Below the pieces are notes generated by a model. It was given only the letters and a program-made list of their open reading frames with translations, did no database searches and was not told where the DNA came from. Source: Candidatus Gottesmanbacteria bacterium UBA6580 (GTDB lineage: Bacteria > Patescibacteriota > Microgenomatia > UBA10105 > UBA927). Taken from it: a stretch of 64,000 nt of DNA. The stretch is taken from contig DJJA01000003.1 in the NCBI GenBank assembly GCA_002433895.1, positions 511,745 to 575,744 of the forward strand, read 5' to 3'. The stretch's first letter is position 1; each line of letters starts with the position of its first letter. Shown here in pieces: positions 1-42,232 of the stretch. Position numbers and translations under genes: made by a program.

Positions 1-1024
1 ACCAGACAACAAGGTGGTTTTCTTTTTTCCGTAATCCGCTGATAAGCCAAACGACTCCGAGAAGAAGAAGCGGCGCTTCAATTGGGTGCAGATTGCCATA
101 GCCCTCTATGTTGTGTGCTCGGTTACCTCCACCTTTGATAAAGAGAAATTCGGGTCCGTATGACCGGAGATAATTCTCAAATACCGTACGTACGGCGTAC
201 GTGATGCGGTTATGGGTAAGCCGTGCTGCGAGTGAATGAGGATCACGGTGCTCCTGTCTCGGAAGTTCAATGTGGTTATGTATAACCGTCGGGTCACCGA
301 AAATGCTTATGCCGCTTATTTTCGTGTGATCAGCAGAGAAAGTGACTGAAAGGATTGTTAGCGTCAGTATCACGCCGATGCCCAACGCTATCCAGAAGCG
401 CGGTATTTTTATAAGCTGCTGACGGTAAAAAAATAGTATGCCGGCAAGGAGCAGCGACGTGAATATGTGATTACCGTGGTAGGTATAATACGTCAGCGAA
501 AAGATCACGGCTGCTGCAATAAGGAAGGCGAGCGATTTCTTTTTTACCGCCAACAGATACCAGATAGTGCCGAGAATAGTAAATAGTACTGCGGTAATTG
601 CTTCGGACTCGACCCGCGAGATATGGATATGCCAGGGCATGATCGCGAGCACGAGTGATGAAAGCAGCGCGATAGTTTCTGAAGCAAACAGGAGCTTTGC
701 GAGATAGTAAATTGCAGCGACACTCATAATGCCCGCGATTGCTGAAGGTAACCGTACTGCCAGCTCAGAAAGGCCGAATATTTTTACAAAAGGTATGGTG
801 GTATAGATATACAGCGGTAGCTTCCAGTCTCCGAACGATTCGAAAGACAGTGGCAATAATCTTCCATACTCGTCCTTACCGGTGGTTGCGAGTGAGTATG
901 CAGTGTACCCTATGCTTGCTTCATCGCGGTTGATCCCCGGAGGAACGTTATCGAGATTATAGAGCCGTAATGCCGCCGCAAGAAGGATGATAATGATAAA
1001 AAAATACCGGAAGTTAATTTTCAT
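1..1024 (-). CDS. PMT_2/ArnT-like GT39-family membrane glycosyltransferase, paralog B0 (5' complete, 3' end runs off window)
   Basis: Hand translation of the minus strand from ATG at 1024 gives MKINFRYFFIIIILLAAALRLYNLDNVPPGINRDEASIGYTAYSLATTGKDEYGRLLP...AVRLPSAIAGI...LFIKGGGNRAHNIEGYG, collinear with the three + strand paralogs at 7719-12792. It is absent from the ORF track because no stop codon falls inside the window. Confidence 0.7.
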   Translation of the reverse strand, partial: MKINFRYFFIIIILLAAALRLYNLDNVPPGINRDEASIGYTAYSLATTGKDEYGRLLPLSFESFGDWKLPLYIYTTIPFVKIFGLSELAVRLPSAIAGIMSVAAIYYLAKLLFASETIALLSSLVLAIMPWHIHISRVESEAITAVLFTILGTIWYLLAVKKKSLAFLIAAAVIFSLTYYTYHGNHIFTSLLLAGILFFYRQQLIKIPRFWIALGIGVILTLTILSVTFSADHTKISGISIFGDPTVIHNHIELPRQEHRDPHSLAARLTHNRITYAVRTVFENYLRSYGPEFLFIKGGGNRAHNIEGYGNLHPIEAPLLLLGVVWLISGLRKKENHLVVW

Positions 1025-3251
1025 TTCTTTTTTGGCGAATAATGACGAGTAGTATGATTGTCGCACTGAGGCTCATGATACTCAAGAGCGCGCCATAGGT
1101 CGCACTTTTCGGATGATATTTTATGGTTACCGTGTGAGTACCCGCGGGTACTTCAAGTTTTTTCAGTTGTTCTTCAGTGGGGTAAATTGGTGTTGGTGTG
1201 GTATCTACCCACGCGAGCCAGCCCGGATAATATGTATCGGTGAGCACCAGGGTGCCGGCAGATGAGCTTTCCGTCCGCAAGGTGATATGTTCCGGCGCGT
1301 AAGCACTGATTGTGACTTTCCCTGTATTTAGCGAGGCGCGTGGTTGAGCACGTGTATTTTCATATACTATCCAGTCCTCATATGAATATACTTTCCGGAA
1401 AATATTCGGAGGATATACACCTTCATCACTCCCATTTTCTACGCGATCCAGTATGTAACGTACACTAAGAGCGTTTAATACTTTTTGTTTGTGTATATCC
1501 GACAGCCCCCCGTCACCAAATCCGGATACGATGGCGGCATCAGATCGTGTTGTGTTGTCAAACGCAGCAAGCGGTTTTCCCGTTTTATATGAATAGAGGA
1601 ATTGTCCGTACGATTTAGGATAAAGCGGGTCGTAGCCTTCAGGAGAAAACAGGTGATACTGGGAAGCAAAGTTCGCGGCAATATTTGCGGTGCCATACCC
1701 CCAGTACCGGTCTGGCGCTTGGCTTTTGAGATACGTGATGATCGGGTGGTCAGGAAAAACGAGTGATCGTTCCGCGAATGGGTTAAAACGGTTAAAAAAG
1801 ATAAATAAGTCTAATGTGTGAACAACAAGAAGTATGATAATGGCGTGCGCCCGCCATTTGGGAAGCGCTATGGCAATCCAGAATAATGAAAGTGTCGCGG
1901 CTGAAATAATTGCGCCGTAGAAAAGAGCCCGTATTGCTATCGGGGCATGGATAGTAAGCTCGGGAATAACCGGAAGCTTAGTAAATATTACAAGAAAAAC
2001 AAAGAGCCCGATTACTTCCAGTGTTCTCCGTACAAGTTTTTTAATTGAGTGTGTATCGGACATCCAATAATCGAGTCCCAATCCGCACATCATGGCAAAA
2101 GAAAAAGCAAAAAGAAACGACATGAGTGTTGGGCTGCTGGAGGTAAAAATCGGCACCGGTATCCGGTAGAGTACAGCAGTAATTGGGTGCGCGGTAATAA
2201 GGAGCAGGGTAATAGCGGTGGCTCCGGTAAACCATTTTGTGATGGTGTCTTTCCGGCGGAATGCGGAAAGCGAAAAAAACAACGGTACTAGCCCTATGGT
2301 TGTAACTTTGCCCACAAACGTATCTGTCGGCCAATAGGTGCGGGTGGCTGGGTTGCCAAAAAAATTAGGAAAAGGGAGGGAGAGTAATTGGAGCGGCTGG
2401 ATAAGTATTTTTGTAAATAAATTAGTGGCATCATGCGGCGAGCGTGCAGCATGCATGATGAGTTCAATGCCCGGGAGCAATTGAATACCGGAAATGCCTA
2501 TGCCGAGTGCCGTACATCCCCCTATATATGTCCACATTGTTCGCTTCGCGCGGAACCCGGTGTATATAAGGGTAAATACCAGCGTATACCCATAGACTTG
2601 CGGGTGGCCCGCAAGTAGTGACGCAGCATGCGCGAAGGTGAGTAATCCCAAGCTTGATACCTGTGGTTTTTCCCGGAGGTGCTCGATACAAAAAAGCATG
2701 AGTGGCAACCAGAGAATAACGTGTCCTATGGTGTTGTATTCGAGCCATACCGCCATAAAACCGGAAAACCCGAAAGACAGCGCAGCAAGGAGTGCACCCT
2801 GATACTGCATACCAATTTTCCGGCTATATATGTAGGTAAAAAGCGTGGCGAGGAATGGCTGCAAGATGATCAATAGAGTCCACGCGTCGATTTGAGAGAG
2901 CCACAGGTACAGCGCTCCTAGTGGGTACAGCGCGGCGCTCTGAAAATTAGCAAGGAGCGGAGCTCCTGAAAAATTATACGGGTTCCATAGGGGCAGCTTT
3001 CCTTGACGTAATGCTTCGACCACAAGCGTTTTCCAGGGATACATTTGCCGGATAACATCGGGATATTGTGCTTTATTCGGAACACCCCCTTCGCCATAAC
3101 CGAGATAGGAGGTGGACCGCCACGGCTGGAAATCGCTGACTAATATATCAGCAGGAATAGGTACTTTTCCGGAAAAAATTGTTTGATAAAAGAATAGCGA
3201 TATGATGCCAAAAAGAAAAATGAAGATGAATAGCCACTCGTTTTTTTTCAT
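1014..3251 (-). CDS. YfhO-family polytopic membrane protein (GT-C-type glycosyltransferase candidate) with a C-terminal extracytoplasmic domain
   Basis: Long ORF with many predicted TM helices. N-terminal region reads ...YPWKTLVVEALRQGKLPLWNPYNFSGAPLLANFQSAALYPL, typical of YfhO proteins. C-terminal YYPGW motif, a final TM helix and a basic tail. Start placed at the internal ATG 3251 (MKKNEWLF...), which forms an ATGA overlap with the upstream gene stop. Confidence 0.65.
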   Translation of the reverse strand: MKKNEWLFIFIFLFGIISLFFYQTIFSGKVPIPADILVSDFQPWRSTSYLGYGEGGVPNKAQYPDVIRQMYPWKTLVVEALRQGKLPLWNPYNFSGAPLLANFQSAALYPLGALYLWLSQIDAWTLLIILQPFLATLFTYIYSRKIGMQYQGALLAALSFGFSGFMAVWLEYNTIGHVILWLPLMLFCIEHLREKPQVSSLGLLTFAHAASLLAGHPQVYGYTLVFTLIYTGFRAKRTMWTYIGGCTALGIGISGIQLLPGIELIMHAARSPHDATNLFTKILIQPLQLLSLPFPNFFGNPATRTYWPTDTFVGKVTTIGLVPLFFSLSAFRRKDTITKWFTGATAITLLLITAHPITAVLYRIPVPIFTSSSPTLMSFLFAFSFAMMCGLGLDYWMSDTHSIKKLVRRTLEVIGLFVFLVIFTKLPVIPELTIHAPIAIRALFYGAIISAATLSLFWIAIALPKWRAHAIIILLVVHTLDLFIFFNRFNPFAERSLVFPDHPIITYLKSQAPDRYWGYGTANIAANFASQYHLFSPEGYDPLYPKSYGQFLYSYKTGKPLAAFDNTTRSDAAIVSGFGDGGLSDIHKQKVLNALSVRYILDRVENGSDEGVYPPNIFRKVYSYEDWIVYENTRAQPRASLNTGKVTISAYAPEHITLRTESSSAGTLVLTDTYYPGWLAWVDTTPTPIYPTEEQLKKLEVPAGTHTVTIKYHPKSATYGALLSIMSLSATIILLVIIRQKRNEN

Positions 3252-4882
3252 GCGTGTTGTTTTTTGCGGCTCGACAGGAGCAGTAATCCCATCATGCATA
3301 TAAACGAAAGTGCAGTCACCCCTTCTGCTATCTGGCGGATAGCAGACTCCTCCCAGACAACCCGTATCGTATGTGTCCCTTTTGGCAGACTAAATGTGAT
3401 AAGCCCCCGCCAATTTTGATCCTGAAATTCAATCGGAAGTTTTTGTCCGTTGTTATACACTCTCCAGCCGGGAAAGTACTGCGTACGGTCAACAACCTGC
3501 ACATCTGTTTCCGCATGTACGGTAAATGTATGTATTGTTCCTTTTTTGGTTGCATCGGTAATCGTGCCCGTACCGCTCGCGAGCTCAAACCGCTTTTCTG
3601 GATATGAGCCAGCGGGTCCAGCCGACCAGATAATATCCGTCTCTCCGAAGTATGTGGTGTTTAACGGATAATCCCAAAAATATTTTTCATCTACCCGGTC
3701 AAAGCCAAGCGGGGGCCGGAAATACACGCCGGCACTTATGATGCTGATAAGTGAAATGCTTATAAGCCAGGGAAATGGTATTTTTTTCCAAACGAGTACC
3801 ACCCCCCCTAAAAGTGCCAGTGATAGCGTGGTGAGATTGAGGAGTCTCCAGGGAAATTGAAACATGCGAAGTATAGGGATATTAGCCCAGAAAAATTCTG
3901 AAACGGGTTGCATAACAAAAAGGGCGGCAAGCGTCAGAAATATGGCAAACCATGCCAACTTGTTATGACTGCCTGTTATTTTTTTCTTGTACAGGAGATA
4001 TGCGGCAGAAATGAGGGCAATAACCTGCATCAGCCCTAAAGTTACTGCGATCCCGCCGGTGAGGAGTGTGCCGTTGTTTGTGAAGTTGGGTATGAAGAAA
4101 TTCTGAAGCGGCGCAAAGTGGGATTTATACATATCTTTCATAAATAGATCGCCATAGGTGAATTTCCGCTCAATAAGCGCCGGGAGCCAATAAAATGCGG
4201 AAAGTCCAAGCCCTAATGCGAGGGCACTAAGCGCAGTTATTCGTTTTTTATTGTCGGGGGCAAATACAAGCGCAAAAAGTACCGCAACGCCGAAAAAGAC
4301 GAGGCTGACGGCATTATGCGACACGATAAGGAGCAGTGTAGCGACACTGATAAGTACCACATTTTGCGCTGTATTCTTTTCTTCAAAGCTCCGTGTAATT
4401 GTGTAGAGCACCAATGGAATAAACGCGAGTGCGTACCCTTCTGCCATGTCGCCGCGGACGACCAGATCAACCAGATGAAACGGCGCAAACTGGTAAAGCA
4501 TGGTGGCAACAAACGCTCTGCCTTCATGTTTAAACAACCGCAGGGAAAATAGGTACATGAACACGCCTGATAATAGAAAACTAATAAGGAGCGCGAATTT
4601 AAATGAAAAAACCAAACCGCCTCCGAGAGCCACCGGTATGGAAGTTACCAGATAGGGTATATGGTAAATAAAATTGAAAAGCGGCATGCCATAGCCATAG
4701 TTAAGCTCCCCAGCCCACCGGGGAAGCAGTTGGCCTTCTGTGAGGGCCTTGTAATATGCGGCGATACGCGCAAAATGAACCGGACTGTCATGCGTGTGGG
4801 GAGCAAGCGGGGTCGTGAGTATGCTAATAAACGGCAGGAATGAAATTGCAATAACGAGGATATAATGTTTTAATGATTTCAT
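3248..4882 (-). CDS. YfhO-like/GT-C membrane protein, paralog A1 (HD-x3-H / PRW...GYG.P family)
   Basis: 544-aa ORF. N-terminal motifs HTHDSPVHFARIAAY and LPRWAGELNYGYGMPLFNFIYHIPY are shared with the ORFs at 14345 and 18424. Multi-TM core, then a C-terminal soluble domain with YFPGWRVYNNG and a final TM helix. Confidence 0.6.
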   Translation of the reverse strand: MKSLKHYILVIAISFLPFISILTTPLAPHTHDSPVHFARIAAYYKALTEGQLLPRWAGELNYGYGMPLFNFIYHIPYLVTSIPVALGGGLVFSFKFALLISFLLSGVFMYLFSLRLFKHEGRAFVATMLYQFAPFHLVDLVVRGDMAEGYALAFIPLVLYTITRSFEEKNTAQNVVLISVATLLLIVSHNAVSLVFFGVAVLFALVFAPDNKKRITALSALALGLGLSAFYWLPALIERKFTYGDLFMKDMYKSHFAPLQNFFIPNFTNNGTLLTGGIAVTLGLMQVIALISAAYLLYKKKITGSHNKLAWFAIFLTLAALFVMQPVSEFFWANIPILRMFQFPWRLLNLTTLSLALLGGVVLVWKKIPFPWLISISLISIISAGVYFRPPLGFDRVDEKYFWDYPLNTTYFGETDIIWSAGPAGSYPEKRFELASGTGTITDATKKGTIHTFTVHAETDVQVVDRTQYFPGWRVYNNGQKLPIEFQDQNWRGLITFSLPKGTHTIRVVWEESAIRQIAEGVTALSFICMMGLLLLSSRKKQHA

Positions 4883-6419: not shown

Positions 6420-6462
6420 AGCCGCGTAGTCAGAACCGGCCTGATTTAGTACAATAAAAGCT

Positions 6463-12792: not shown

Positions 12793-14348
12793 AAAAAACT
12801 ACCCACCGTGCCGAGCCAAAATTCCAGGCAACACTTCTACACGGCATATCATATATCGTTTTTGGCATTATGGTGGTTGCGGTTGTCCTAGGTATCACGC
12901 TCCGCCTAGTTGAAACTTTCAGCGGTAACTATGTATTTGGTTTTGATCAGGGATTGGATTTTTTGGCGGCACGTTCCATCGCGGTGGATCATAAAATAAC
13001 ACTTATTGGTTCCGAGGCGGGAGCCGGGTTTGCAGGGCTCCCGGGCGTGTTTCATGGACCGGGATACCGGTACATACTGGCGGTTCTTCTTGCGGTGTCA
13101 TCGGGCAATCCATATGGTGCAATCGTGTTTCTCGGTGCACTGAGTGTTGTATTGTTATGGGTATTATTCCGGTTGTCGGATCATATCTTCGGACGCCCGG
13201 TAGCGTGGGCAACAGTATTCTTGGCTGCGGTTTCTCTGCCGCTTATTGGCCAGGGCCGTATGGTGTGGGCGCCGAATTTTTCCGGCCTTGTGGCGCTGCC
13301 TTTCCTTTTTGCGCTGTGGAAGTCGCGGAAAAACGCTCCGTGGTATATGTTCCTTACCGCATTGCTGGCATCTTCCCTGTATCATTTTGAAATTCCCATG
13401 GCGGTACCCGCGGTGTTGGCCTCATTTTTATATTTTTTATTTGTTACAAAAAACCGGCGGGTATATGGATGGGGGTTGTATGTATTTGGTATCTTCCTTG
13501 GGTTCCTGCCCATGTTGCTTTTTGAAGCCCGGCACGGATGGGGGTTGGTAAAGGGGCTGCTTAGTTATGGAGGCCGTATCGGAGCCACAAAAGCAGCAGC
13601 GCCATTTTATCCGCTTAAAGAGTTGATAGGCGACGGAAACGCACTGCTTTCTACTATCCGTGACTCGTTTCATTTCGGAGTACCCTGGGTAAGTGGGATA
13701 TTTCCGGCGGTGTTGTTGGCGGGGGCACTTATTTTTGCGTACCGCGAGAAGAGTAAAGACATCAGACAATTTGTGACCGCACTGTTGTTGCTTATCGGGT
13801 CACATGTGCTGGTGTATTACCCGTACCGTGGGCCGGTATATTCGCACTATCTTTCTTTACTTTATTTCGTATATCCGCTGGTAGCCGCGTATGTTGCGAT
13901 CAAATTATTGTCTACCCGTGTAACCCGATTAGCGGTATATGTTTTGGGACTTCTCATGGTTATAGAGGTACTCTCAGTTTTTCCTAAAACGATAATGTAT
14001 GACTACGCTGATTACGGTGGAACGGCAAAGATGAAAGGAAAAATCGACGCGATAGATGCGATTTACGAACATGCCGCGGGCAAGGGATTTAATATACAGG
14101 TTTTTACTCCTCCCGTACTTCCGCATGCATATGACTATATACTCTTATGGTACGCCGCCAAAAAATACGGATATACGCCGGGGCGCGACCTTAACGGGAC
14201 TGTATATCTATTGATTGAACCCGATCCGGAGAAACCATGGAGTTATAATGGCTGGTTAGAGACCGTCATAAAAACCGGCGAGGTAGAAAGCCGTTGGAAA
14301 TTGCCGAGTGGTTTTATGATAGAAAAACGATTTATGAAAGGAATATGA
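12789..14348 (+). CDS. Polytopic membrane protein, GT-C candidate
   Basis: 519-aa multi-TM ORF with an N-terminal loop FGFDQGLDFLAARSI, a DQG motif also seen in the 4929 ORF. ATGA overlap with the upstream gene. Confidence 0.4.
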   Translation: MKKTTHRAEPKFQATLLHGISYIVFGIMVVAVVLGITLRLVETFSGNYVFGFDQGLDFLAARSIAVDHKITLIGSEAGAGFAGLPGVFHGPGYRYILAVLLAVSSGNPYGAIVFLGALSVVLLWVLFRLSDHIFGRPVAWATVFLAAVSLPLIGQGRMVWAPNFSGLVALPFLFALWKSRKNAPWYMFLTALLASSLYHFEIPMAVPAVLASFLYFLFVTKNRRVYGWGLYVFGIFLGFLPMLLFEARHGWGLVKGLLSYGGRIGATKAAAPFYPLKELIGDGNALLSTIRDSFHFGVPWVSGIFPAVLLAGALIFAYREKSKDIRQFVTALLLLIGSHVLVYYPYRGPVYSHYLSLLYFVYPLVAAYVAIKLLSTRVTRLAVYVLGLLMVIEVLSVFPKTIMYDYADYGGTAKMKGKIDAIDAIYEHAAGKGFNIQVFTPPVLPHAYDYILLWYAAKKYGYTPGRDLNGTVYLLIEPDPEKPWSYNGWLETVIKTGEVESRWKLPSGFMIEKRFMKGI

Positions 14349-16761: not shown

Positions 16762-17279
16762 AGCGGTTTTTTGTCGGAGTTATTATTTCGGTACTATATT
16801 GTTTCAGTATGCTGCCAACCGTGCGTGCTGATTATGTGTTGCCCTACCCCGGGTTTATGCCCGGAAATAAACTGTATAAAGTGTCACGCTTCTTGGATAA
16901 AGCAAAAGAGCCGCTCTATTTCGGTCCGCTCAGCGCATACAAATATCACCTTGGTCTGGCTGATAAATACTTGGTGGAGGCGAAGGTGTTATTCGAATAT
17001 AAACAGTATTTGCTTGCGGTAGATGCATTGGCCCGCTCAGACAAAGAATTTACTATGCTTCCCCGGTATCTGGTACAGGCGGGGAAGCAGCGGAAAGATG
17101 TATCCTTGTTCGAACAGCAGCTTTCAGAAGCAGCGTTGATGCACAAGCAAATACTGGAGGAGTTATTGGTACAGCTTCCCGATACATTCACATGGACACC
17201 GGAGAAATCAGCCGCAACCTTATTGCCTCTCAAAGATTTGCTGCAGAGTTCGGTGACTATCCGTTCAAACGTATTATGA
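16758..17279 (+). CDS. Small secreted hypothetical protein (possibly DUF5667-like)
   Basis: N-terminal signal or anchor MKRFFVGVIISVLYCFSMLPTVRA followed by DYVLPYPGFMPGNKLYKVSRFLDKAKE. Tightly coupled to its neighbours by 4-nt overlaps on both sides. Confidence 0.4.
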   Translation: MKRFFVGVIISVLYCFSMLPTVRADYVLPYPGFMPGNKLYKVSRFLDKAKEPLYFGPLSAYKYHLGLADKYLVEAKVLFEYKQYLLAVDALARSDKEFTMLPRYLVQAGKQRKDVSLFEQQLSEAALMHKQILEELLVQLPDTFTWTPEKSAATLLPLKDLLQSSVTIRSNVL

Positions 17280-35369: not shown

Positions 35370-35396
35370 TTACCGGTTTATCCGGTGGGAACTTGT

Positions 35397-36002
35397 ATGG
35401 AACGTATATCTCAATTCGTATCCGCAGTCAGACGTAAAGGATTTATAGAAACCTCATTGCACCTTGTTGTGATGGGTATTGGCAGGGTAACTTCCTGGTT
35501 GCGGATAATTGTATTGAGGCTACGCGGGTATGACATTGCTTCCTCAGCGCTTTTGGGAAGTAACATATTATTTTTCCAAAGCACGTGGCGCGCGGTGAAA
35601 GTGGGTAACAATTCACGGATAGGTAATAACGCACGGGTCAGTGCCGGCGGGACTGGGAACGTTGTCATTGCAAATGATGTATTGATCGACGATAGCACCT
35701 ACGTCATGGCGCACGAAAAAATAATCATCGGTAAGAATACGAAAATTGCTGCATTTTGTTTTATTACCGATTTTAACCATGAGTTCCGTGACCGGGAAAA
35801 ACCACTTAAAGATCAGGGGTATGTTACCAAACCGGTGGTGATAGGTGAGAACGTGTGGATAGGTACACACGTGGTGGTGTTACCTGGTGTCACTATTGGG
35901 CCGGGTAGCGTGATCGGCGCGGGGTCGGTGGTGACAAAAGACATACCCGGAAATGTCGTAGCTGTAGGAAATCCCGCCCGTGTCATACGAAAGGCGTCCT
36001 AA
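35397..36002 (+). CDS. Hexapeptide-repeat (left-handed beta-helix) acetyltransferase
   Basis: Repeats IGNNARVSAGGTGNVVI...IGKNTKIA...IGENVWIGTHVVVLPGVTIGPGSVIGAGSVVTKDIPGNVVAVGNPARVIRK. The ORF track starts at GTG 35385. ATG 35397 is preferred because it is preceded by GGTGGGA. Confidence 0.75.
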   Translation: MERISQFVSAVRRKGFIETSLHLVVMGIGRVTSWLRIIVLRLRGYDIASSALLGSNILFFQSTWRAVKVGNNSRIGNNARVSAGGTGNVVIANDVLIDDSTYVMAHEKIIIGKNTKIAAFCFITDFNHEFRDREKPLKDQGYVTKPVVIGENVWIGTHVVVLPGVTIGPGSVIGAGSVVTKDIPGNVVAVGNPARVIRKAS

Positions 36003-38225
36003 ATGAGAATGGAAAAAAAAGTACCCCCACGGATTTGGCTGATGATGAACGTGGTAATCGTGGGCTTGCTTTTATTTTTGCCCTATTATTTATTCGGCGG
36101 GAGATTATTTTTAGGAGGCGATGATACTCGGATTTTTTATGCGTATCCCCGTGAGGTGATGCAAAGCCTCGCAATATATTCGTGGAATACGATTTCATCG
36201 CTCTCTTCCTATACGCCTAACCATCAGTTTTTCCCGTTTTTGGCCATTCTTTCATGGTTAGAGACGCTCATCCAGTCAAAAACTCTGTTGTTTTATTTTA
36301 CTTTTTCATTGCCGCTTATACTGGGATTTATTTATTTCCAGAAATTCGTTCTGCTAATTATAAAAAGCGAGTATTATGCAGCATTTGTTGTCGCGTTGCT
36401 TTATATACTATCTCCCGTGACCATGTTTAGCCAGTTATTATATTTCCTTTCCCCGGCATGGCTGATCGCTCTGTTTCCGATTTATGCCTATTATTTTTTG
36501 AAGTACATTCAACACGGGGGTTCGACGGATGTGTACAAAGTTGTATTTTGGGCAATTTTGTTTTCGTTTGCAAATCTTGGAGTGCCATGGTTGGGTGGAC
36601 TTTTTTTACCATTTATACCAGCAATTATTTTGTTTTTTATCCGGGATAGACGGTCAATTCTTCCGTATGTTAAGCGGAGCGTCATTTTTGGGATTTCGCT
36701 TGCGGTAAGCCAGTTATTTTGGGTCGTGCCATTTGTTATATCACTCTTATATCAGGGGGACATCGGTTATGCCGCCCGGGTGACCGATGCTGCCGCAACA
36801 TTTGCCGCAACCGTCAATGGAACAGCGACCGGTAATGTAATATATCCGCTCCTCACATTTTATCACCGGCAGTTTTTAAGCGATATTAATCAGCCGCTTG
36901 TGGCAATATTTGCTAACTACTATGATTATATACTGCCAATAAGTCTTATTTTTGTCGTGATATTGGCCATGGGGATTTTGCAGTATAAAAAAGTGTTTCG
37001 GAACGAACATTTGTACGTTTTCCACATTTTTTTAATTGCTTTTTTGGCAGCACTATATTTTTTCACAGTAAATATAGGTGTGCTTAAGGACATCTTTATT
37101 CTGATGGGATACATCCCCGGGTTCGGTATGTTCCGGAATTTTACTGACAAGTTTGCGCTCGGGTATATTTTCGTGTATGCGTCTCTTCTATATATATGTC
37201 TATTTGTTATACATAAGACCAGTAAATTTTATCGACTCATCCTCGTTACCGCATTCATTGCAGTATTCCTGAATGCAGCCCCCGTTAAACAGATTGTTGA
37301 TAGTCCATTATGGACGACCAAAGATATTTCCAGAATCCTAAATATCCCCTCTGAATATCTTTCGTTTATGGACGATATCCGTAAAAATATTCCTCCTTCC
37401 GGTCAGATTTTTAGCTTACCACAAAATATCGCTTCGTACGCAATTATTACCGAGGATGACGGGAGGCACACTTACGCTGGTGTATCGCCTGTTAAATTTT
37501 TTACCGGAGTAAATGACCTCAGTGGTAGTGGTTCGTATCCTCCGCAAATAGAAGAGCAGATTAAAGGTGCAATAATAGCGCGAAATTACGAAAAACTATT
37601 GACTATACTCCGTAAAATTAATGTCTCGCATGTAATGGTAACGAACAACACGCCGCCGTCTGTACGAAAATCTTATATGTATAACGCAGATTATCTTTCA
37701 TATCAGGATCAGGCGCTGGTGGACGCAATTGTTGACAAAGAGGTGATGAGGAGCACTCAGGGTAATTACGTATTATATCAACTAAAGAATCCTACAATGG
37801 TGATAACATCTCAGGCTAACATCGACTATATACGTGTATCTCCTATCCAGTACGAAGTGACAGTACGTGGCATATCATCGCCGCAGAAACTCCTATTTGC
37901 GGAAACGTATCATCCCGGCTGGAAAGTATATCCCTCAACGGGAGCTGGAAAAACGGATAATGAAACAACGTTATACACTAAGCTCGACAAAGCATTGTTC
38001 GTTGACTCTCATAAACCCGCATCATCCTATGGTAATGAATGGACAATCGATCCCATGGCTATCAGAGCTTTAGGTAGTTCGTACTACACGTCAAACACAG
38101 ATGGAAGTGTAAACGCAAAAATTGTGCTGTATTTTCAACCGCAGATATACGCTTATGTAGGCGCAATACTCACCTTTTTTTCACTTAGTGTTGTTTTTAT
38201 ATACCTGAAAAAACAAAAGATATGA
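36003..38225 (+). CDS. Large YfhO-like/GT-C polytopic membrane protein with C-terminal extracytoplasmic domain
   Basis: 740 aa. N-terminal loop GGDDTRIFYAYPRE, more than 12 TM helices, then a soluble domain containing AETYHPGWKVYPSTG and a final TM helix. Confidence 0.5.
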   Translation: MRMEKKVPPRIWLMMNVVIVGLLLFLPYYLFGGRLFLGGDDTRIFYAYPREVMQSLAIYSWNTISSLSSYTPNHQFFPFLAILSWLETLIQSKTLLFYFTFSLPLILGFIYFQKFVLLIIKSEYYAAFVVALLYILSPVTMFSQLLYFLSPAWLIALFPIYAYYFLKYIQHGGSTDVYKVVFWAILFSFANLGVPWLGGLFLPFIPAIILFFIRDRRSILPYVKRSVIFGISLAVSQLFWVVPFVISLLYQGDIGYAARVTDAAATFAATVNGTATGNVIYPLLTFYHRQFLSDINQPLVAIFANYYDYILPISLIFVVILAMGILQYKKVFRNEHLYVFHIFLIAFLAALYFFTVNIGVLKDIFILMGYIPGFGMFRNFTDKFALGYIFVYASLLYICLFVIHKTSKFYRLILVTAFIAVFLNAAPVKQIVDSPLWTTKDISRILNIPSEYLSFMDDIRKNIPPSGQIFSLPQNIASYAIITEDDGRHTYAGVSPVKFFTGVNDLSGSGSYPPQIEEQIKGAIIARNYEKLLTILRKINVSHVMVTNNTPPSVRKSYMYNADYLSYQDQALVDAIVDKEVMRSTQGNYVLYQLKNPTMVITSQANIDYIRVSPIQYEVTVRGISSPQKLLFAETYHPGWKVYPSTGAGKTDNETTLYTKLDKALFVDSHKPASSYGNEWTIDPMAIRALGSSYYTSNTDGSVNAKIVLYFQPQIYAYVGAILTFFSLSVVFIYLKKQKI

Positions 38226-41200
38226 TGTCAGCACCAGATATTATTAAAAAATATATTGTCGTACCTATCGCACTTTTGTTGTTCTGGCTTATTATTTCGC
38301 TCATTGTGGTTTCTTCCGAGAGTTTTACTGTTTTGACGTATCCGGAAACCAATAACTCTCGTATTGTAAGCACCGACGACGGGTATTTGATGAAAGGACA
38401 AAAGCTAAGAGGTGAGTTTGTCGCCAGACAAGACAATCTTGGTATAGTGTCGGTAAAAGTGGACAAAGTGAGTTATACCGGCGAAGAAGATTTACTCGTA
38501 TTCAGGATAAAAGAGCAAGGCGCAAGCGATTGGCTACACACAAATGAATATAAAGGCGGAATATTTCGGGGGAGCAGAGTTTTTACTTTTGGCTTTCCGA
38601 TAATTGAGTCATCTCGGGGACACACGTATTATTTTGAATTGGAGTCTTTGAAGGGTACTGCCGTCAATGCTATTCAAATTTCGAACGCAAGCCCCATCAT
38701 TACCAGTAGATATAAGTTTTCTAAGAGTGATATTTTAAATACCTCTTTCTTTCCCGAATTCCTGATTGCGAAAGTACACACATTGTTTATTAACACTGAC
38801 CATTTGTCTTCTACGGTGATATTTCTAATGCCGTTTGTTTTGTACATAATGGGGTTGTTATATAACGCCCGCAATATCAGTGTATTTAAAAAATACCAGT
38901 TCATCGCATTGATGGTGGTCTTATTTATTTTTTACGATACTTTTTTCGCGCGACTGCATTTGGAGATAGTCTTTTTTACCTTATTGGCATTTTGGTTATA
39001 TGCCATTCATATAAACAAGATGAGCCACGCAATTTCTTTATATCTGGCACTTCTGATACTCGTGGTGAGCGTTTGTTTTACATATTCTAAAATAGAATTC
39101 TCTATAAACAGGGCGAGCGCATGGATTTACTTCCTTATCCTAATTGCCGGGGTGCAATCTATATATGGCCTATACACACCAGCCGCTGACTTTATGCGGA
39201 ATATAACCTCAAGACTTTTCGCGCCTTTACATAAATTGGCAGCACCGAAGATAGAAGGTACCACGCTATTAGTTATCGTAGTGATGTTATTTATTTACCG
39301 AAATTGGCTCGGGGGAGGCTTACTGACCGCTCCTGATTTTCCCTACTATTTCACCCAGCGGTTTAGTGAAATCAATTGGTTGCCTTCGGCATGGACAAAT
39401 TTAGGCGCCTCAAGCCTTGGCGAGCCGGGGTTAAGCGGGTTAAATCTGAATACGTATGTAAGTATCGGAACGAAGCTTTTTGTGCAGATTTTCCGGATAC
39501 CATGGGACGTAGCGTCACGTATGCTCTTTTTTTGGCCATTTTTACTAGTGGGCGCTCTCTCATCATATTACTGTGGATATTTCATGCTAAAAAACCGATT
39601 ATGGGCAACGTTATCCATGCTTATTTATCTGTCGAATTCCTACATTCTTATGATTGCCGGTGGCGGCCAAGTTGGTATATTTATGGCGTACGCAATAGCT
39701 CCTCTTGTTCTGGGAAGTTTTACGCGGCGTAGTGTTGTGATCTTTACAATCGCGCTAACACTCATATTGTTGTTTGATCTGCGGATAAGTTTGCTTATAT
39801 TCTTTGTCCTGTTTTTGTACGTTATATGCGTCCTACCAGTGAAGGAGTGGTCAGGTGTTATTCGTTTCGGTATATTGCCAGCGGTTATTACACTTGGACT
39901 TCACAGTTTTTGGTTGCTTCCGGTGATAGCCGCGCGCGGCATTACCTTGCCCGGTGATTTTGCAGATCCCAAATGGCTGACGTTTTTAAGTTGGGCGGAG
40001 TTTTCCAAAACACTATCGTTGCTTCATCCAAATTGGCCAGAAAATATTTTCGGAAAAACGTATTTTATGCAACCTGAGTTTTTGTTGTTGCCGATTGCTG
40101 CCTATGGATCGCTATATTTGCTTATCCAAAAACGCAGAGGGATCATACGCGATGTCTCGGTGAATGCTTTCCCGACATACAGGATACTTATCTTTGTCTC
40201 ATTGCTCGGATTAATCGGCGCATTTTTATCCAAAGGGGTAAACCCTCCAATCGGGGAATTGTACCGCTGGATGTTTGAGCATGTACCGTTTTTCAGCGCT
40301 TTCCGTGAACCAACCAAGTTTTATTTGCTGACATCGCTTTCTTATAGCGTGCTTATCCCATGGTCACTTATGGCAGCAACAACATGGATAGAACATAGAT
40401 TTAAATATGTTTCTGCCGCGCCCGTGATAGTGTTTATTTTGTCAGTTATCACTTGGAGCGGGATTATCCGTCAGGTGTTTTTGGGTGAGGTTCGCGGATC
40501 ATTCTCTCGGGTGACAGTGCCGCCCGCATACCAGCAATTTGCAGGACTAGTAACAATGACGCCGGATTTTAGCAGGACTCTTGCAGCTCCATGGAAAAAT
40601 AGATTTATTTACGAATCAGAAAATCATCCGGTAATAAGTGCAAGTGAGGTGTTTCATACGACTGATATACGCACGCTGGCTGACATTCTTGAAACCGCAT
40701 CTGCCGCTGCGACACTCCGGAGGCTGGCAGTCACTCATATTGTTGTGCCTGATGATTTTATGCACGAAATTTTTCTTACTGATCGGCAATATGATCCTAA
40801 TTTGCAGCGTCAGTTAGTTCGTTCTCTTGATAATCAACAGTATTTTCGCAAAAGAGATGATGTAGTTGGGCTTGATGTATACGCCGCCACTTCGGACAGT
40901 GGATTATTTTATGCAGATGATGATAAGGCAAGCACACTGTTTCCCCACTCCATGTATTCGCCGGCAAAGTATATTGTTACTATTCCTGACTACAATACGA
41001 TTTCTCCTATGGTTTTTGCCCAGGGCTATGATCCCGGATGGCGGCTGTGGGACGGAAACACCGTTATGCCGAGTGAAAAAACGGCTGATGGGCTGAACAG
41101 CTTCAGGATAGAGGTGAGTAAGCCAGTAACTGCTGAAGTGTATTATGAGCCGCAGCAATGGGTGGATAAGGGGTACAAGGTTACCGTTTTCATATTCATT

Positions 41201-42232
41201 ATTGTGATGACCGGAATTGTTATCAGGCAATTTAGCAAAATTCTTCCTCTAAAATTCAGTTATTTGGCTTTTATACTTACACTTGGAATGGCATCGTATA
41301 TATGGCGCGGAGGTTTTATTACACCCCGTGAAGTAATTACGGATCCGAATATACGATGGGGTCAGCAGTGGGGGACTGTGTCTGTTGCAGGGTTTACTGA
41401 AAAGGTATCGCGCTACGGGGGAAGCGAGATGCTATTTGTGGTGCCGGGGGGGTCGGGTGTGAAGATTACCATAGCTCAGTACCGCCCTGAACAGGATAAC
41501 GCAGTGCAGATATGGGTAGACGGAAAAGAGCATGCTGTATCAGAGACGGCGAATGTATCCGAACAAACGATACATATTTTAGCGGAAAAACATCCGCGTA
41601 GCGTACGGGTGCGTACATATTGTTCAGGTGATTTATTTTGTCAGACCCGTATCAGATCCATAAAGCTTCATAATAAAGGAAGCCTTGCGAAAGTGAATGA
41701 GGATCCTGTTACAAAAATGGCAGTATTGGGTGATAGTCTTACATCACTATATGGGCACCATAATTATGTGTATAAAATCGCCGATAAGCTAAACTGGCAG
41801 ATTCATAACGCCTCTTTTATCGGTTCTACATTAACGGATCATCCCGGCGTTCTTCCGGGTATTACAAGGCTAAAGAGTGATATCGTTGCCATAAAGCCTG
41901 ATGTTATCGTGTTGGCCTTGGGGACGAACGACGCGATCCAACGGGTTCCAATTGATGAGTTTGTCCGCACATATGAACAGATGATTGCTGATATACGGGA
42001 GTCGCTGCCTAACGTGAAGATGTATTCGGTAGGGTTACTGGCAAACTACGCAGGAGTAATTCCAGTGGTTGATGGGTATAATAATGCGATAAAGGCTGTG
42101 AGCAAAGCACAAAATGTGTCATATATTCCTATGAACATGATTTTACAAAAGTATGATTTTGTGGATACGATCCATCCGTCAGAAGAAGCGCAGGAAAAAA
42201 TGGCTGAACACGTATTAACATTTATCGAATAA
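38222..42232 (+). CDS. Giant membrane protein: N-terminal extracytoplasmic domain, YfhO-like multi-TM core, YDPGW beta-domain, and C-terminal SGNH/GDSL hydrolase domain
   Basis: 1336 aa. Hydrophobic core from about aa 190 to 760. AQGYDPGWRLWDGN motif and a TM at about aa 975. The C-terminus reads KMAVLGDSLTSLYG...VIVLALGTNDA...VDTIHPSEEAQEKMAEHV, matching SGNH blocks I, III and V (Ser, Gly/Asn, Asp-x-x-His). Confidence 0.6.
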   Translation: MMSAPDIIKKYIVVPIALLLFWLIISLIVVSSESFTVLTYPETNNSRIVSTDDGYLMKGQKLRGEFVARQDNLGIVSVKVDKVSYTGEEDLLVFRIKEQGASDWLHTNEYKGGIFRGSRVFTFGFPIIESSRGHTYYFELESLKGTAVNAIQISNASPIITSRYKFSKSDILNTSFFPEFLIAKVHTLFINTDHLSSTVIFLMPFVLYIMGLLYNARNISVFKKYQFIALMVVLFIFYDTFFARLHLEIVFFTLLAFWLYAIHINKMSHAISLYLALLILVVSVCFTYSKIEFSINRASAWIYFLILIAGVQSIYGLYTPAADFMRNITSRLFAPLHKLAAPKIEGTTLLVIVVMLFIYRNWLGGGLLTAPDFPYYFTQRFSEINWLPSAWTNLGASSLGEPGLSGLNLNTYVSIGTKLFVQIFRIPWDVASRMLFFWPFLLVGALSSYYCGYFMLKNRLWATLSMLIYLSNSYILMIAGGGQVGIFMAYAIAPLVLGSFTRRSVVIFTIALTLILLFDLRISLLIFFVLFLYVICVLPVKEWSGVIRFGILPAVITLGLHSFWLLPVIAARGITLPGDFADPKWLTFLSWAEFSKTLSLLHPNWPENIFGKTYFMQPEFLLLPIAAYGSLYLLIQKRRGIIRDVSVNAFPTYRILIFVSLLGLIGAFLSKGVNPPIGELYRWMFEHVPFFSAFREPTKFYLLTSLSYSVLIPWSLMAATTWIEHRFKYVSAAPVIVFILSVITWSGIIRQVFLGEVRGSFSRVTVPPAYQQFAGLVTMTPDFSRTLAAPWKNRFIYESENHPVISASEVFHTTDIRTLADILETASAAATLRRLAVTHIVVPDDFMHEIFLTDRQYDPNLQRQLVRSLDNQQYFRKRDDVVGLDVYAATSDSGLFYADDDKASTLFPHSMYSPAKYIVTIPDYNTISPMVFAQGYDPGWRLWDGNTVMPSEKTADGLNSFRIEVSKPVTAEVYYEPQQWVDKGYKVTVFIFIIVMTGIVIRQFSKILPLKFSYLAFILTLGMASYIWRGGFITPREVITDPNIRWGQQWGTVSVAGFTEKVSRYGGSEMLFVVPGGSGVKITIAQYRPEQDNAVQIWVDGKEHAVSETANVSEQTIHILAEKHPRSVRVRTYCSGDLFCQTRIRSIKLHNKGSLAKVNEDPVTKMAVLGDSLTSLYGHHNYVYKIADKLNWQIHNASFIGSTLTDHPGVLPGITRLKSDIVAIKPDVIVLALGTNDAIQRVPIDEFVRTYEQMIADIRESLPNVKMYSVGLLANYAGVIPVVDGYNNAIKAVSKAQNVSYIPMNMILQKYDFVDTIHPSEEAQEKMAEHVLTFIE

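What the first reader, a model, noticed from the sequence alone, without database searches (positions are those of the whole stretch)
1014..42232. Six YfhO-like proteins share a C-terminal Y-x-PGW beta-domain; three form a distinct paralog family with an HD-x3-H / PRW-x6-GYG-x-P N-terminal signature
The C-terminal extracytoplasmic domains of the ORFs at 1014 (YYPGW), 3248 (YFPGW), 14345 (YFPGW), 18424 (YYPGW), 36003 (YHPGW) and 38222 (YDPGW) all carry Y-x-PGW followed by a hydrophobic stretch and a final TM anchor. The three A paralogs (3248, 14345, 18424) also share HTHD/THDG...H...R and PRWA-x-(E/N/D)LN-x-GYG-x-P-x4-Y-P-x-P-x-Y near the N-terminus. The loop-1 acidic/His cluster is the likely catalytic site by analogy with GT-C enzymes. 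Three divergent copies suggest three acceptor or donor specificities.
Basis: seen in the sequence. Interest (0 to 1): 0.6.

Follow-up and report, generated by a model that had tools for sequence, protein, structure and literature searches.

The report
Six related membrane glycosyltransferases, one island
The six proteins really are distant relatives that share a small C-terminal domain with a Y-x-PGW turn, but that motif is an ordinary hallmark of the known YfhO-type membrane sugar transferases, found here in a candidate-phylum (Gottesmanbacteria) sugar-coat gene island.

Summary
Y-x-PGW occurs exactly six times in the six-frame translation (0.24 expected by chance), once in each named ORF. 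Profile comparisons place all six copies at the same position: a beta-hairpin turn in an extracytoplasmic beta-sandwich, followed by a membrane helix.

The six proteins are one GT-C superfamily but four families:
- ORF 1014 is a true YfhO (PF09586).
- ORF 3248 is PF10131. ORFs 14345 and 18424 are its deep paralogs, missed by Pfam.
- ORFs 36003 and 38222 belong to two families with no Pfam or NCBIfam model. They are full-length remote homologues of the others.
- ORF 38222 also carries an SGNH/GDSL domain.

AlphaFold models of 3248 and 36003 match solved GT-C enzymes (AftD, STT3/PglB, ArnT).

The "HD...PRW...GYG-x-P" signature is invariant in the PF10131-type family, but it is that family's version of a superfamily-wide loop-1 pattern. 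An invariant Asp lies 24 residues before an invariant Trp in the three paralogs, in ORF 1014 and in a Bacteroides RefSeq YfhO, which also carries YYPGW.

The three paralogs are old orthogroups with separate conserved neighbours: 3248 with YfhO, 14345 with a GT2, and 18424 downstream of 14345.

Verdict: a sound observation of new members of a known kind, of modest interest.

The parts
1014..3299 (-). YfhO-family GT-C glycosyltransferase. 761 aa from the first ATG; the likely true start is M17 at base 3251 (745 aa). YYPGW at aa 690-694 (bases 1218-1232). Final TM helix at about aa 736-754. Invariant loop-1 Asp is D81; PLWNP motif at aa 103-107.
   Evidence: Pfam PF09586 70.5 bits. The C-terminal fragment hits YfhO HMM positions 748-835 at 39 bits. 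39,714 representative homologues. ATGA overlap with the stop of ORF 3248.
3248..4882 (-). PF10131-type GT-C glycosyltransferase (544 aa), paralog 'B'. Loop-1 signature HTHD32-x3-H36-x2-R39 ... PRW56-x6-GYG65-x-P67 (bases about 4652-4798). YFPGW at aa 469-473 (bases 3464-3478). Beta-sandwich at aa 432-510; TM anchor at aa 514-543.
   Evidence: Pfam PF10131 60.5 bits. 720 homologues in Patescibacteria. AF2 model with pLDDT 88, pTM 0.90. Foldseek best hits AftD, STT3, PglB, ArnT.
14345..16003 (+). Deep paralog 'C' of ORF 3248 (552 aa). THD36-x3-H-x2-R and PRW60-x6-GYG-x-P. YFPGW at bases 15761-15775. C-terminal TM anchor. Its ATG overlaps the stop of the upstream gene as ATGA.
   Evidence: BLASTP to 3248 E 3e-79. 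Only a sub-threshold YfhO Pfam hit. A separate orthogroup of 18 loci at 44-66% identity, followed by an orthologue of GT2 15985 in 15 of 18.
18424..19962 (+). Deep paralog 'D' (512 aa). THD28-x3-H-x2-R and PRW52-x6-GYG-x-P. YYPGW at bases 19759-19773. C-terminal TM anchor.
   Evidence: BLASTP to 3248 E 9e-55 and to 14345 E 2e-49. No Pfam hit. Orthologues at 45-60% identity lie downstream of C-type genes in L071, L075, L080 and L087.
36003..38225 (+). Member 'E' of a GT-C family with no Pfam or NCBIfam model (740 aa). Invariant GGDD at aa 38-41 after TM1 (bases 36114-36125). TM core aa 10-432; alpha/beta domain aa 450-595; beta-sandwich aa 601-711 with YHPGW at bases 37908-37922; TM anchor aa 714-737.
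   Evidence: 142 homologues, none with a Pfam domain. AF2 model with pLDDT 81, pTM 0.84. Foldseek hits AftD, STT3, PglB, DPY19, ALG12, ArnT, AftA. hhalign to the F family 99.2%.
38222..42232 (+). Member 'F' of a rare GT-C family fused to an SGNH/GDSL domain (1336 aa). N-terminal extension aa 1-340. GT-C core from about aa 345 with invariant D372. YDPGW at bases 41027-41041. TM at aa 987-1005 plus a second hydrophobic segment. SGNH domain aa 1166-1331 (bases 41717-42214) with GDS 1170, GTND 1234 and DTIHP 1315.
   Evidence: Pfam GDSL hits only. 17 homologues in 5.8 billion proteins. hhalign to the 3248 family 98%, to the 1014 family 97.5% and to the E family 99.2%. SGNH blocks located.
15985..16761 (+). 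GT2 glycosyltransferase (258 aa) overlapping the end of paralog C; its conserved partner gene.
   Evidence: Pfam PF00535. An orthologue is present in 15 of 18 C-type loci, directly downstream of C in most of them.
21034..21729 (+). Small GT2 (231 aa) with full-length similarity to polyprenyl-phosphate sugar synthases (AglJ, dolichyl-P-hexose transferase, PpgS, ArnC, PgfS). Candidate maker of the lipid-linked donor.
   Evidence: NCBIfam hits, all below equivalog cut-offs. Pfam PF00535 119.6 bits.
22969..23772 (+). Second GT2 (267 aa) with PpgS/ArnC/PgfS-like full-length similarity. Candidate lipid-linked donor synthase.
35385..36002 (+). Hexapeptide-repeat acyltransferase directly upstream of E. 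The order hexapep-E-F-membrane protein is conserved.
   Evidence: Pfam Hexapep. Synteny in L004 and L005.

Best explanation
The six ORFs are members of one GT-C superfamily of polytopic membrane glycosyltransferases, split into four families.

Families:
- ORF 1014: true YfhO.
- ORFs 3248, 14345, 18424: PF10131-type.
- ORF 36003: an unmodelled family.
- ORF 38222: a second unmodelled family, fused to an SGNH domain.

Shared plan:
- A first TM helix.
- An extracytoplasmic loop 1 with an invariant Asp about 20-24 residues before an invariant Trp.
- A core of about 11-13 TM helices.
- An extracytoplasmic domain that ends in a beta-sandwich.
- One more TM helix.

Inferred mechanism, by analogy with CsbB/YfhO and other GT-C systems. 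Cytoplasmic GT2 enzymes of the island load a sugar onto a polyprenyl phosphate. The lipid-linked sugar is flipped. Each GT-C then transfers it, outside the membrane, to a cell-surface glycopolymer or glycoprotein, with the loop-1 Asp acting as the catalytic or donor-binding residue.

Role of the motif. Y-x-PGW is the turn of a beta-hairpin in the sandwich: a strand, then Y-x-P-G, then a strand that starts at W. I read it as a structural element that holds the sandwich together and probably docks it on the membrane core, not as an acceptor-specific sugar-binding site.

The paralogs. The three PF10131-type paralogs are ancient and sit in different conserved gene neighbourhoods, so they most likely act on different donors or acceptors.

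What is shown and what is inferred:
- Shown: homology, fold, motif register, conservation, synteny.
- Inferred: lipid donor, acceptor, catalytic role of the Asp, role of the motif.
For: Homology and motif register.

Fold: confident AF2 models of 3248 (pTM 0.90) and 36003 (pTM 0.84). Their only significant PDB matches are GT-C enzymes: AftD, STT3, PglB, AglB, AftA, ArnT, DPY19, ALG12.

Loop-1 conservation: D32, H36, R39, R55, W56, G65, P67 in 28/28 sequences; D81, W105 in 33/33; D40, D41, W61 in 33/33; D372, W391 in 15/15. The Asp-to-Trp spacing is 24 in 3248, 14345, 18424, 1014 and a Bacteroides RefSeq YfhO, and 20 and 19 in 36003 and 38222.

Motif as a hairpin turn:
- In the 3248 model, strand 461-468, YFPG 469-472, strand 473-477.
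- In the 36003 model, strand 628-632, motif 636-640, strand 640-644.
- Only the Trp is invariant in all four families. Pro and Gly are replaced in the E and F families (Pro 12/33, Gly 5/15).

Context: GT2 candidates for polyprenyl-P-sugar synthesis, a Wzx-like flippase, GT4s, sugar-nucleotide enzymes and seven PMT_2-type GT-Cs.

Synteny:
- 3248-type followed directly by YfhO in about 55 of 62 loci.
- 14345-type followed by the GT2 in 15 of 18 loci.
- 18424-type downstream of 14345-type in at least 4 other genomes.
- Hexapep-E-F conserved.

Literature: YfhO is the GT-C of the CsbB/GtcA/YfhO system. [quoted passage not shown]
Against: - No biochemical data exist for any member of these four CPR families.
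- No GtrA-type flippase was found in the window.
- The GT2 partner of ORF 14345 (15985) does not look like a typical polyprenyl-P synthase: it has only N-terminal matches and no TM segment.
- The loop-1 regions alone do not give significant profile-profile scores. The Asp equivalence therefore rests on spacing, invariance and the flanking full-length alignments.
- The structural reading of the motif could not be checked against model coordinates (burial or contacts).
Confidence: 0.72

Rival explanations
1. The Y-x-PGW beta-sandwich is a carbohydrate-binding module that holds the acceptor polymer over the loop-1 HD site, and the aromatic Tyr and Trp form the sugar-binding platform.
For: - The domain is an extracytoplasmic beta-sandwich next to the GT-C core.
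- AftD, the best structural match, carries carbohydrate-binding modules. A review speculates that S. aureus YfhO has extracellular carbohydrate-binding domains (PMC8035078).
- Trp and Tyr are typical sugar-stacking residues.
- The Trp is invariant.
Against: - The Trp is invariant across four families that should have different substrates.
- The motif sits in a hairpin turn, and P-G is replaced by other residues in two of the families.
- No CBM family was hit in Pfam by the isolated domains.
- Geometry relative to the Asp could not be measured.
Confidence: 0.25
2. Some of the six, especially the tandem pair 3248/1014 or 36003/38222, are not independent enzymes. They would be subunits of a heteromeric GT-C complex in which one partner may be non-catalytic, as in Pmt1-Pmt2 or EmbA-EmbB.
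For: - ATGA start/stop overlaps at 3248-1014 and at 36003-38222.
- The 3248-type to YfhO tandem is conserved in about 55 of 62 genomes.
- The E-F order is conserved in L004.
Against: - Both partners keep their invariant loop-1 Asp.
- Adjacency also fits successive steps of one pathway.
- No interaction prediction was possible with these tools.
Confidence: 0.25
3. The six Y-x-PGW matches are chance or convergent short motifs in otherwise unrelated membrane proteins.
For: Pairwise BLAST between some of the pairs is not significant on its own (for example 18424 vs 38222, 3248 vs 36003). The C-terminal profile comparison of 3248 vs 36003 alone gives E 0.01.
Against: - 6 observed against 0.24 expected.
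- Profile-profile probabilities of 87-99.6% with the motifs in register.
- The same secondary-structure position in two independent models.
Confidence: 0.02

Closest known systems
YfhO (Pfam PF09586): the GT-C enzyme of the CsbB/GtcA/YfhO teichoic-acid GlcNAc glycosylation systems of B. subtilis, S. aureus and L. monocytogenes; also S. mutans PgfM2
   Same: ORF 1014 is a member by Pfam score. Shared architecture: a multi-TM core, a large extracytoplasmic domain between the last two TM helices, the C-terminal [YF]-x-PGW beta-domain (YfhO HMM positions 748-835), and the loop-1 Asp-x23-Trp pattern. A Bacteroides RefSeq 'YfhO family protein' carries YYPGW 79 residues from its end and 'QHD...RW..FGGMP'.
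   Different: - The other five ORFs fail the YfhO Pfam cut-off.
- The host is a Gottesmanbacteria (CPR) genome. No teichoic-acid pathway genes and no GtrA/GtcA flippase turned up among the window ORFs scanned.
- ORF 1014 is paired with a PF10131-type GT-C, not with a CsbB-type GT2.
PF10131 'PTPS_related' membrane domain (GT-C/PMT clan, function unknown); NCBI name '6-pyruvoyl-tetrahydropterin synthase-related protein'
   Same: ORF 3248 and most of its orthologues hit PF10131 above the cut-off over HMM positions 7-298. PMC7801869 lists PF10131 among the families homologous to the GT-C-like TMTC membrane region, with 'function unknown'.
   Different: Only the N-terminal half of the Pfam model is matched. 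The C-terminal beta-domain of 3248 resembles the end of the YfhO model instead. ORFs 14345 and 18424 are not detected by the PF10131 HMM at all.
Mycobacterial arabinofuranosyltransferase AftD (PDB 6W98; Pfam PF11847 GT-C_AftD)
   Same: Best Foldseek match of both models (E 2.8e-6 and 8.9e-6). Weak Pfam hit of ORF 3248. Like these proteins, it has a soluble extracytoplasmic region placed between the GT-C core and C-terminal TM helices (the AftD architecture is stated from my own knowledge).
   Different: TM-scores are only about 0.4 and identity is 12-17%. AftD is about 1,400 aa with several CBMs and an acyl-carrier-protein partner. There was no sequence-level PDB match.
Oligosaccharyltransferases STT3 / PglB / AglB
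   Same: GT-C fold matches for both models. The alpha/beta domain of ORF 36003 resembles the C-terminal globular domain of AglB-S2 (PDB 3VU0; probability 0.99, TM 0.52, but E 0.1).
   Different: No WWD(YG) motif in any of the six proteins. A terminal TM anchor follows the soluble domain here.
SGNH/GDSL domains attached to membrane glycan-modifying enzymes (for example OatA or OafA, acyltransferase-3 plus SGNH)
   Same: ORF 38222 ends in an SGNH domain with blocks I, III and V intact (GDS, GTND, D-x-x-H). It is probably extracytoplasmic, because two hydrophobic segments separate it from the outside-facing PGW domain.
   Different: The membrane partner here is a GT-C glycosyltransferase homologue, not an acyltransferase-3 domain. 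No paper describing a GT-C-SGNH fusion was found in the searchable library.

Membership tests
YfhO (PF09586) | Whole-protein score above the Pfam gathering cut-off (28.5 bits) | tested here: met
   This row is for ORF 1014: 70.5 bits. Its C-terminal fragment alone scores 39.4 bits on HMM positions 748-835.
YfhO (PF09586) | The same cut-off, applied to ORFs 3248, 14345, 18424, 36003 and 38222 | tested here: not met
   14345 scores 21 bits. The 3248 C-terminal fragment scores 18 bits. 18424, 36003 and 38222 give no hit at E <= 0.1. They are remote homologues by hhalign but not members by the curated threshold.
YfhO (PF09586) | Multi-TM core plus a large extracytoplasmic loop between the last two TM helices (B. 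subtilis YfhO: 13 TM, 389-aa loop; PMC5836110) | tested here: met
   Hydropathy profiles and the AF2 models show a core, an outside domain and a TM helix after it in all six. The domain is about 90 aa in 3248, 14345 and 18424, and about 230-280 aa in 1014, 36003 and 38222.
YfhO (PF09586) | Operon partnership with a CsbB-type GT2 (two C-terminal TM helices) and a GtrA/GtcA flippase | tested here: not met
   ORF 1014 is paired with ORF 3248, not with a GT2. No GtrA Pfam hit among the ORFs scanned. The window does hold GT2s (21034, 22969) that resemble polyprenyl-P-sugar synthases, and one GT2 with C-terminal TM segments (44559).
PF10131 (PTPS_related) | Whole-protein score above the Pfam cut-off (26.4 bits) | tested here: met
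   ORF 3248: 60.5 bits over HMM positions 7-298 of 621. Most orthologues carry the precomputed PF10131 assignment.
PF10131 (PTPS_related) | The same cut-off, applied to ORFs 14345 and 18424 | tested here: not met
   No PF10131 hit at E <= 0.1, although BLASTP to 3248 is full-length at E 3e-79 and 9e-55.
GT-C fold glycosyltransferases | Three-dimensional similarity of the TM core to solved GT-C enzymes | tested here: met
   The models of 3248 and 36003 have only GT-C enzymes among their hits at E < 1e-3 (14 hits each). ORFs 1014, 14345, 18424 and 38222 are linked to them by sequence and profile homology.
GT-C fold glycosyltransferases | Conserved acidic residue in the first extracytoplasmic loop | tested here: met
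   D32 (28/28), D81 (33/33), D40 and D41 (33/33), D372 (15/15). D32 lies immediately before the first loop-1 helix (residues 33-48) that follows the N-terminal TM helix of the model.
GT-C fold glycosyltransferases | Use of a polyprenyl-phosphate-linked sugar donor on the outer face of the membrane | not testable with these tools
   Inferred only, from the fold and from neighbouring GT2 genes that resemble polyprenyl-P-sugar synthases.
Oligosaccharyltransferase (STT3/PglB/AglB) | WWDYG-type motif in the C-terminal domain | tested here: not met
   No WWD in any of the six proteins.
SGNH/GDSL hydrolase (ORF 38222 C-terminus) | Pfam score above the cut-off and catalytic blocks I (GDS), III (GxND) and V (DxxH) | tested here: met
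   PF13472 72 bits and PF00657 52 bits. GDS at 1170, GTND at 1234, DTIHP at 1315. S1172 is conserved in 14/15 and N1236 in 14/15 sequences.
Carbohydrate-binding module (for the PGW beta-sandwich) | Match to a known CBM family, or a ligand groove lined by the motif | tested here: inconclusive

The most novel reading that the evidence does not exclude
Gottesmanbacteria and related Microgenomates may build a surface glycopolymer with an assembly line made largely of GT-C enzymes. The reading has three parts:
1. The translationally coupled PF10131-type/YfhO pair (3248-1014) acts as an obligate heteromeric GT-C complex.
2. ORFs 36003 and 38222 stand for two previously unmodelled GT-C families.
3. 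The second of these couples extracytoplasmic glycosyl transfer with an SGNH O-acyl esterase or transferase in one polypeptide.
Probability: 0.2. Interest if true: 0.6.

Novelty: new member of a known kind. Interest (0 to 1): 0.33.

Why it matters
The result tidies the annotation of a very large and mostly unstudied protein superfamily.

- YfhO, the PF10131 family (named after an unrelated enzyme) and two families without any model share one architecture.
- They share two diagnostic sequence marks: a loop-1 Asp about 20-24 residues before an invariant Trp, and a C-terminal [YF]-x-x-x-W hairpin followed by a membrane helix.
- This nominates a catalytic residue for YfhO enzymes. The 2018 study that identified YfhO's role in lipoteichoic acid glycosylation could not predict one (PMC5836110).
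- It gives concrete mutants to test.
- It points to conserved gene pairs in candidate-phylum bacteria, whose cell envelopes are essentially uncharacterised.

It does not reveal a new kind of system.

Tried and rejected
2. Profile searches of the PDB with the 1014-family and 3248-family profiles: no hits at E <= 1.
3. hhalign restricted to the N-terminal loop-1 regions: not significant for any pair (E 0.013-0.31). The Asp equivalence is argued from spacing and invariance instead.
4. C-terminal-only hhalign of the 3248 family vs the 36003 family: motifs aligned, but E 0.01 and probability 4%. The homology is established through the 38222 family and the 1014 family instead.
5. Metagenome scan for close relatives of ORF 18424: no confirmed relative. 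Orthologues were then found in the flanks of C-type loci.
6. A strict regular-expression count of the signature in 76 related loci undercounted it and is not used.
7. HMMs of all four families against every ORF of the window: no seventh member. The unannotated membrane proteins 12789, 17192, 42244 and 52310 are not detectably related.
8. Oligosaccharyltransferase membership: considered because of the 3VU0 match, rejected because there is no WWD motif.
9. Literature searches for PF10131, for CPR bacteria plus GT-C or YfhO, and for SGNH plus GT-C found nothing specific.


Full report
OBSERVATION. The six ORFs exist as described. A scan of all six reading frames finds Y.PGW exactly six times, once in each ORF: aa 690 of 1014-3299(-), 469 of 3248-4882(-), 473 of 14345-16003(+), 446 of 18424-19962(+), 636 of 36003-38225(+) and 936 of 38222-42232(+). 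Residue shuffles of the same translations give a mean of 0.24 and at most 2. In five proteins the motif lies 66-104 residues from the C-terminus and is followed by a single strongly hydrophobic helix. In ORF 38222 it lies 400 residues from the end.

The three 'A paralogs' align over their full length (E 3e-79, 9e-55, 2e-49; 27-33% identity). They share HD-x3-H-x2-R and PRW-x6-GYG-x-P. Small corrections:
- The tail of the signature is P-x5-Y-P-x-P-x-Y in two copies and differs in ORF 3248.
- ORF 1014 probably starts at M17 (base 3251), where its ATG overlaps the TGA of ORF 3248 as ATGA.

ARE THE MOTIFS POSITIONALLY HOMOLOGOUS? Yes. I built family alignments from database homologues:
- A2: the 3248 family plus 14345 and 18424, 28 sequences.
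- A3: the 36003 family, 33 sequences.
- A4: the 38222 family, 15 sequences.
- A5: the 1014 family, 33 sequences.

Profile-profile comparison gave:

| Pair | Probability | E-value | Extent |
|---|---|---|---|
| A3-A4 | 99.2% | 2.8e-19 | 609 columns |
| A2-A4 | 98.0% | 2e-13 | 503 columns |
| A5-A2 | 99.6% | 1.2e-24 | TM core |
| A5-A4 | 97.5% | 8.5e-12 | 525 columns |
| A5-A3 | 87% | 4e-6 | C-terminal domain |

Every alignment that reaches the C-terminal domain puts the Y.PGW motifs in register. Plain HMM searches agree: the A2 profile finds the C-terminal domain of ORF 1014 (iE 2.5e-9) and the A5 profile finds that of ORF 3248 (iE 9e-8). No other ORF of the window belongs to these families.

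WHAT THEY ARE. Pfam files ORF 1014 under YfhO (70.5 bits) and ORF 3248 under PF10131 'PTPS_related' (60.5 bits), with a weak AftD GT-C hit. ORF 14345 gets a sub-threshold YfhO hit. ORFs 18424 and 36003 get nothing. ORF 38222 gets only a C-terminal GDSL/SGNH domain.

The homologues of 3248 are Patescibacteria proteins that NCBI names '6-pyruvoyl-tetrahydropterin synthase-related protein'. None of the listed homologues of ORF 36003 (120 of the 142 found) has any Pfam domain. ORF 38222 has only 17 relatives in 5.8 billion proteins.

AlphaFold2 models:
- ORF 3248 (pLDDT 88, pTM 0.90): a helical membrane core, a beta-sandwich (aa 432-510) and a terminal helix (aa 514-543).
- ORF 36003 (pLDDT 81, pTM 0.84): the same plan, with an extra alpha/beta domain (aa 450-595) before the sandwich (aa 601-711) and the anchor (aa 714-737).

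In both models the only significant PDB matches are GT-C glycosyltransferases: AftD (best), STT3/PglB/AglB, AftA, ArnT, DPY19 and ALG12. There is no sequence-level relative in the PDB. So the six proteins are one GT-C superfamily, four families, and only one is 'YfhO' in the curated sense.

THE TWO SIGNATURES ARE SUPERFAMILY MARKS.

The motif. The Trp is invariant in all four families (28/28, 33/33, 15/15, 33/33). Tyr alternates with Phe. Pro and Gly are nearly invariant in the YfhO and PF10131-type families but variable in the other two (Pro 12/33 in A3, Gly 5/15 in A4). The C-terminal fragment of ORF 1014 matches positions 748-835 of the 835-position Pfam YfhO model, so the motif lies in the last part of that model. 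A RefSeq 'YfhO family protein' of Bacteroides finegoldii (WP_022275429.1) has '...FSEVYYPGWQATIDG...' 79 residues from its end, followed by a TM helix. Its C-terminal region aligns with those of 1014, 3248, 14345 and 36003 (E 4e-14, 2e-5, 1e-4, 5e-4).

The loop-1 signature. It is invariant in the 3248 family (D32, H36, R39, R55, W56, N61, G65, P67 in 28/28). However, hhalign aligns 'KALTEGQLLPRWAGELNYGYGMPLF' of 3248 with 'EALRQGKLPLWNPYNFSGAPLL' of 1014. PRW..GYG.P is therefore the counterpart of the invariant YfhO PLWNP..G.P. The distance from the invariant Asp to the invariant Trp is 24 residues in 3248, 14345, 18424, 1014 (D81-W105) and the Bacteroides YfhO ('QHD36...RW60..FGGMP'). It is 20 in 36003 (GGDD41...W61) and 19 in 38222 (APD372...W391). 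Loop-1 segments alone are too short for significant profile scores, so this equivalence is an inference from spacing, invariance and the flanking alignments.

HOW IT PROBABLY WORKS. By analogy with the CsbB/GtcA/YfhO systems and solved GT-C enzymes (PMC5836110, PMC8035078), a cytoplasmic GT2 makes a polyprenyl-phosphate sugar. It is flipped, and the GT-C transfers the sugar outside the membrane.

The window fits this picture. It is almost entirely a glycan island of a Candidatus Gottesmanbacteria genome. The ORF 36003 protein is encoded identically in assembly GCA_002343365.1, and the best species representative is UBA5942 at 86% identity for ORF 3248. The island contains:
- six ORFs with a significant PMT_2 hit and one GT87 protein (all GT-C-type);
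- six GT2 and seven GT4 enzymes;
- a Wzx-like flippase;
- epimerases/dehydratases, methyltransferases and two hexapeptide acyltransferases
.

GT2 21034 and GT2 22969 resemble AglJ, dolichyl-P-hexose, PpgS, ArnC and PgfS synthases over their full length.

The invariant loop-1 Asp lies immediately before the first loop-1 helix (residues 33-48) that follows the N-terminal TM helix of the 3248 model. It is the natural catalytic candidate.

In both models the motif is a hairpin: a strand, then Y-x-P-G, then a strand that begins at W. Only the Trp is universally kept, across families that should differ in substrate. I therefore favour a structural or docking role over an acceptor-binding role. Without coordinates this stays an inference. 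The high pTM values indicate that the sandwich is placed confidently relative to the core.

THE PARALOGS ARE OLD AND HAVE DIFFERENT PARTNERS. Among 80 loci from GTDB species representatives (Gottesmanbacteria, Levybacteria, Woesebacteria, Shapirobacteria and others), 62 are 3248-type and 18 are 14345-type (44-66% identity).
- About 55 of the 62 3248-type genes are followed directly, on the same strand, by a YfhO gene orthologous to ORF 1014 (also L006 and L007).
- 15 of the 18 14345-type genes have an orthologue of GT2 15985 in the locus, directly downstream in most of them. Often a DUF5667 protein and an orthologue of membrane protein 17192 come next.
- 18424-type orthologues (45-60% identity) follow at the locus ends in L071, L075, L080 and L087.
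- The order hexapeptide acyltransferase, 36003-type, 38222-type, ~556-aa membrane protein is kept in a genome where the ORF 38222 homologue is 55% identical (L004). A more distant one (L005) keeps hexapep, 38222-type, membrane protein.

It also raises the possibility that the tandem pairs act together.

ORF 38222. The core family (~990 aa) begins at about residue 345. The first 340 residues (a TM helix, a ~150-aa region and several more TM helices) occur only in it and its two closest relatives. After the PGW domain come a TM helix (aa 987-1005), a short basic loop, a second weaker hydrophobic segment, a ~120-aa region and an SGNH domain with GDS, GTND and DxxH intact. If both segments span the membrane, the SGNH domain is outside. 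That suggests O-acyl esterase or transferase chemistry on the same glycan. I found no description of a GT-C-SGNH fusion.

VERDICT. The 'distinct' N-terminal signature is the family-specific form of a shared loop-1 pattern. The useful additions:
- the link between four families, two of them without any model;
- a candidate catalytic Asp for YfhO-type enzymes;
- the conserved gene pairs in CPR bacteria.

Novelty: new members of a known kind (with ORF 38222 a new domain arrangement). Interest: modest.

Noticed in passing
window 1-64000: Almost the whole 64 kb window is one glycan-biosynthesis island. It holds at least 13 GT-C-type membrane proteins: the six studied here, six ORFs with a significant PMT_2 hit (4929, 7719, 9463, 11152, 26782, 55498) and one GT87 (6463). 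It also holds six GT2 and seven GT4 enzymes, a Wzx-like flippase (21702), about eight epimerases/dehydratases, about six methyltransferases and two hexapeptide acyltransferases. For a CPR genome of roughly 1.1-1.2 Mb (the relatives' contigs are 1.17-1.22 Mb) this is more than 5% of the genome.
   Followed up: partly
window 3248-3251 (- strand); also 14345-14348, 18424-18427, 38222-38225: Start and stop codons overlap as ATGA at four junctions: 3248-1014 (using M17 of ORF 1014), 12789-14345, 17192-18424 and 36003-38222. This suggests translational coupling along the island.
   Followed up: partly
window 41717-42214 (+) and 38222-39241 (+): ORF 38222 is a GT-C homologue fused to a C-terminal SGNH/GDSL domain with intact catalytic blocks. 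It also has a 340-residue N-terminal extension found only in its two closest relatives. The family is rare: 17 hits in 5.8 billion proteins.
   Followed up: partly
window 12789-14348, 17192-18427, 42244-43914, 52310-55501 (all +): Four multi-TM or large proteins (519, 411, 556 and 1063 aa) have no Pfam or NCBIfam hit and are not detected by the HMMs of the four families. Their orthologues keep their place in related genomes: a 556-aa protein after the ORF 38222 homologue in L004, a 517-aa protein in L005, and a 1062-aa protein at L005 17130-20115. They may be further unmodelled glycan-assembly proteins.
   Followed up: partly
window 36001-46000: G+C drops to 0.40-0.44 across ORFs 36003, 38222, 42244, 43919 and 44559, against 0.45-0.49 elsewhere in the window. 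The module may be more variable or of separate origin.
   Followed up: no
model of ORF 36003, aa 450-595: The alpha/beta domain between the TM core and the beta-sandwich resembles the C-terminal globular domain of the archaeal oligosaccharyltransferase AglB-S2 (PDB 3VU0; Foldseek probability 0.99, TM 0.52, but E 0.1). No WWD motif is present.
   Followed up: partly
loci L011, L012, L016-L019 and many others; L060: Many GTDB species-representative records that carry the 3248-type/YfhO gene pair are titled 'uncultured Gammaproteobacteria bacterium' (TPA_asm MAGs). One is titled 'Candidatus Pacearchaeota archaeon' (L060, 44% identity). Their gene content here looks like Patescibacteria, so the record titles are probably placeholders or mislabels, or L060 is a mis-binned contig.
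   Followed up: no
window 16758-17279 (+): A small secreted-looking protein with a DUF5667 domain lies between the 14345/GT2 pair and membrane protein 17192. It is conserved at that place in 9 of 18 C-type loci.
   Followed up: partly
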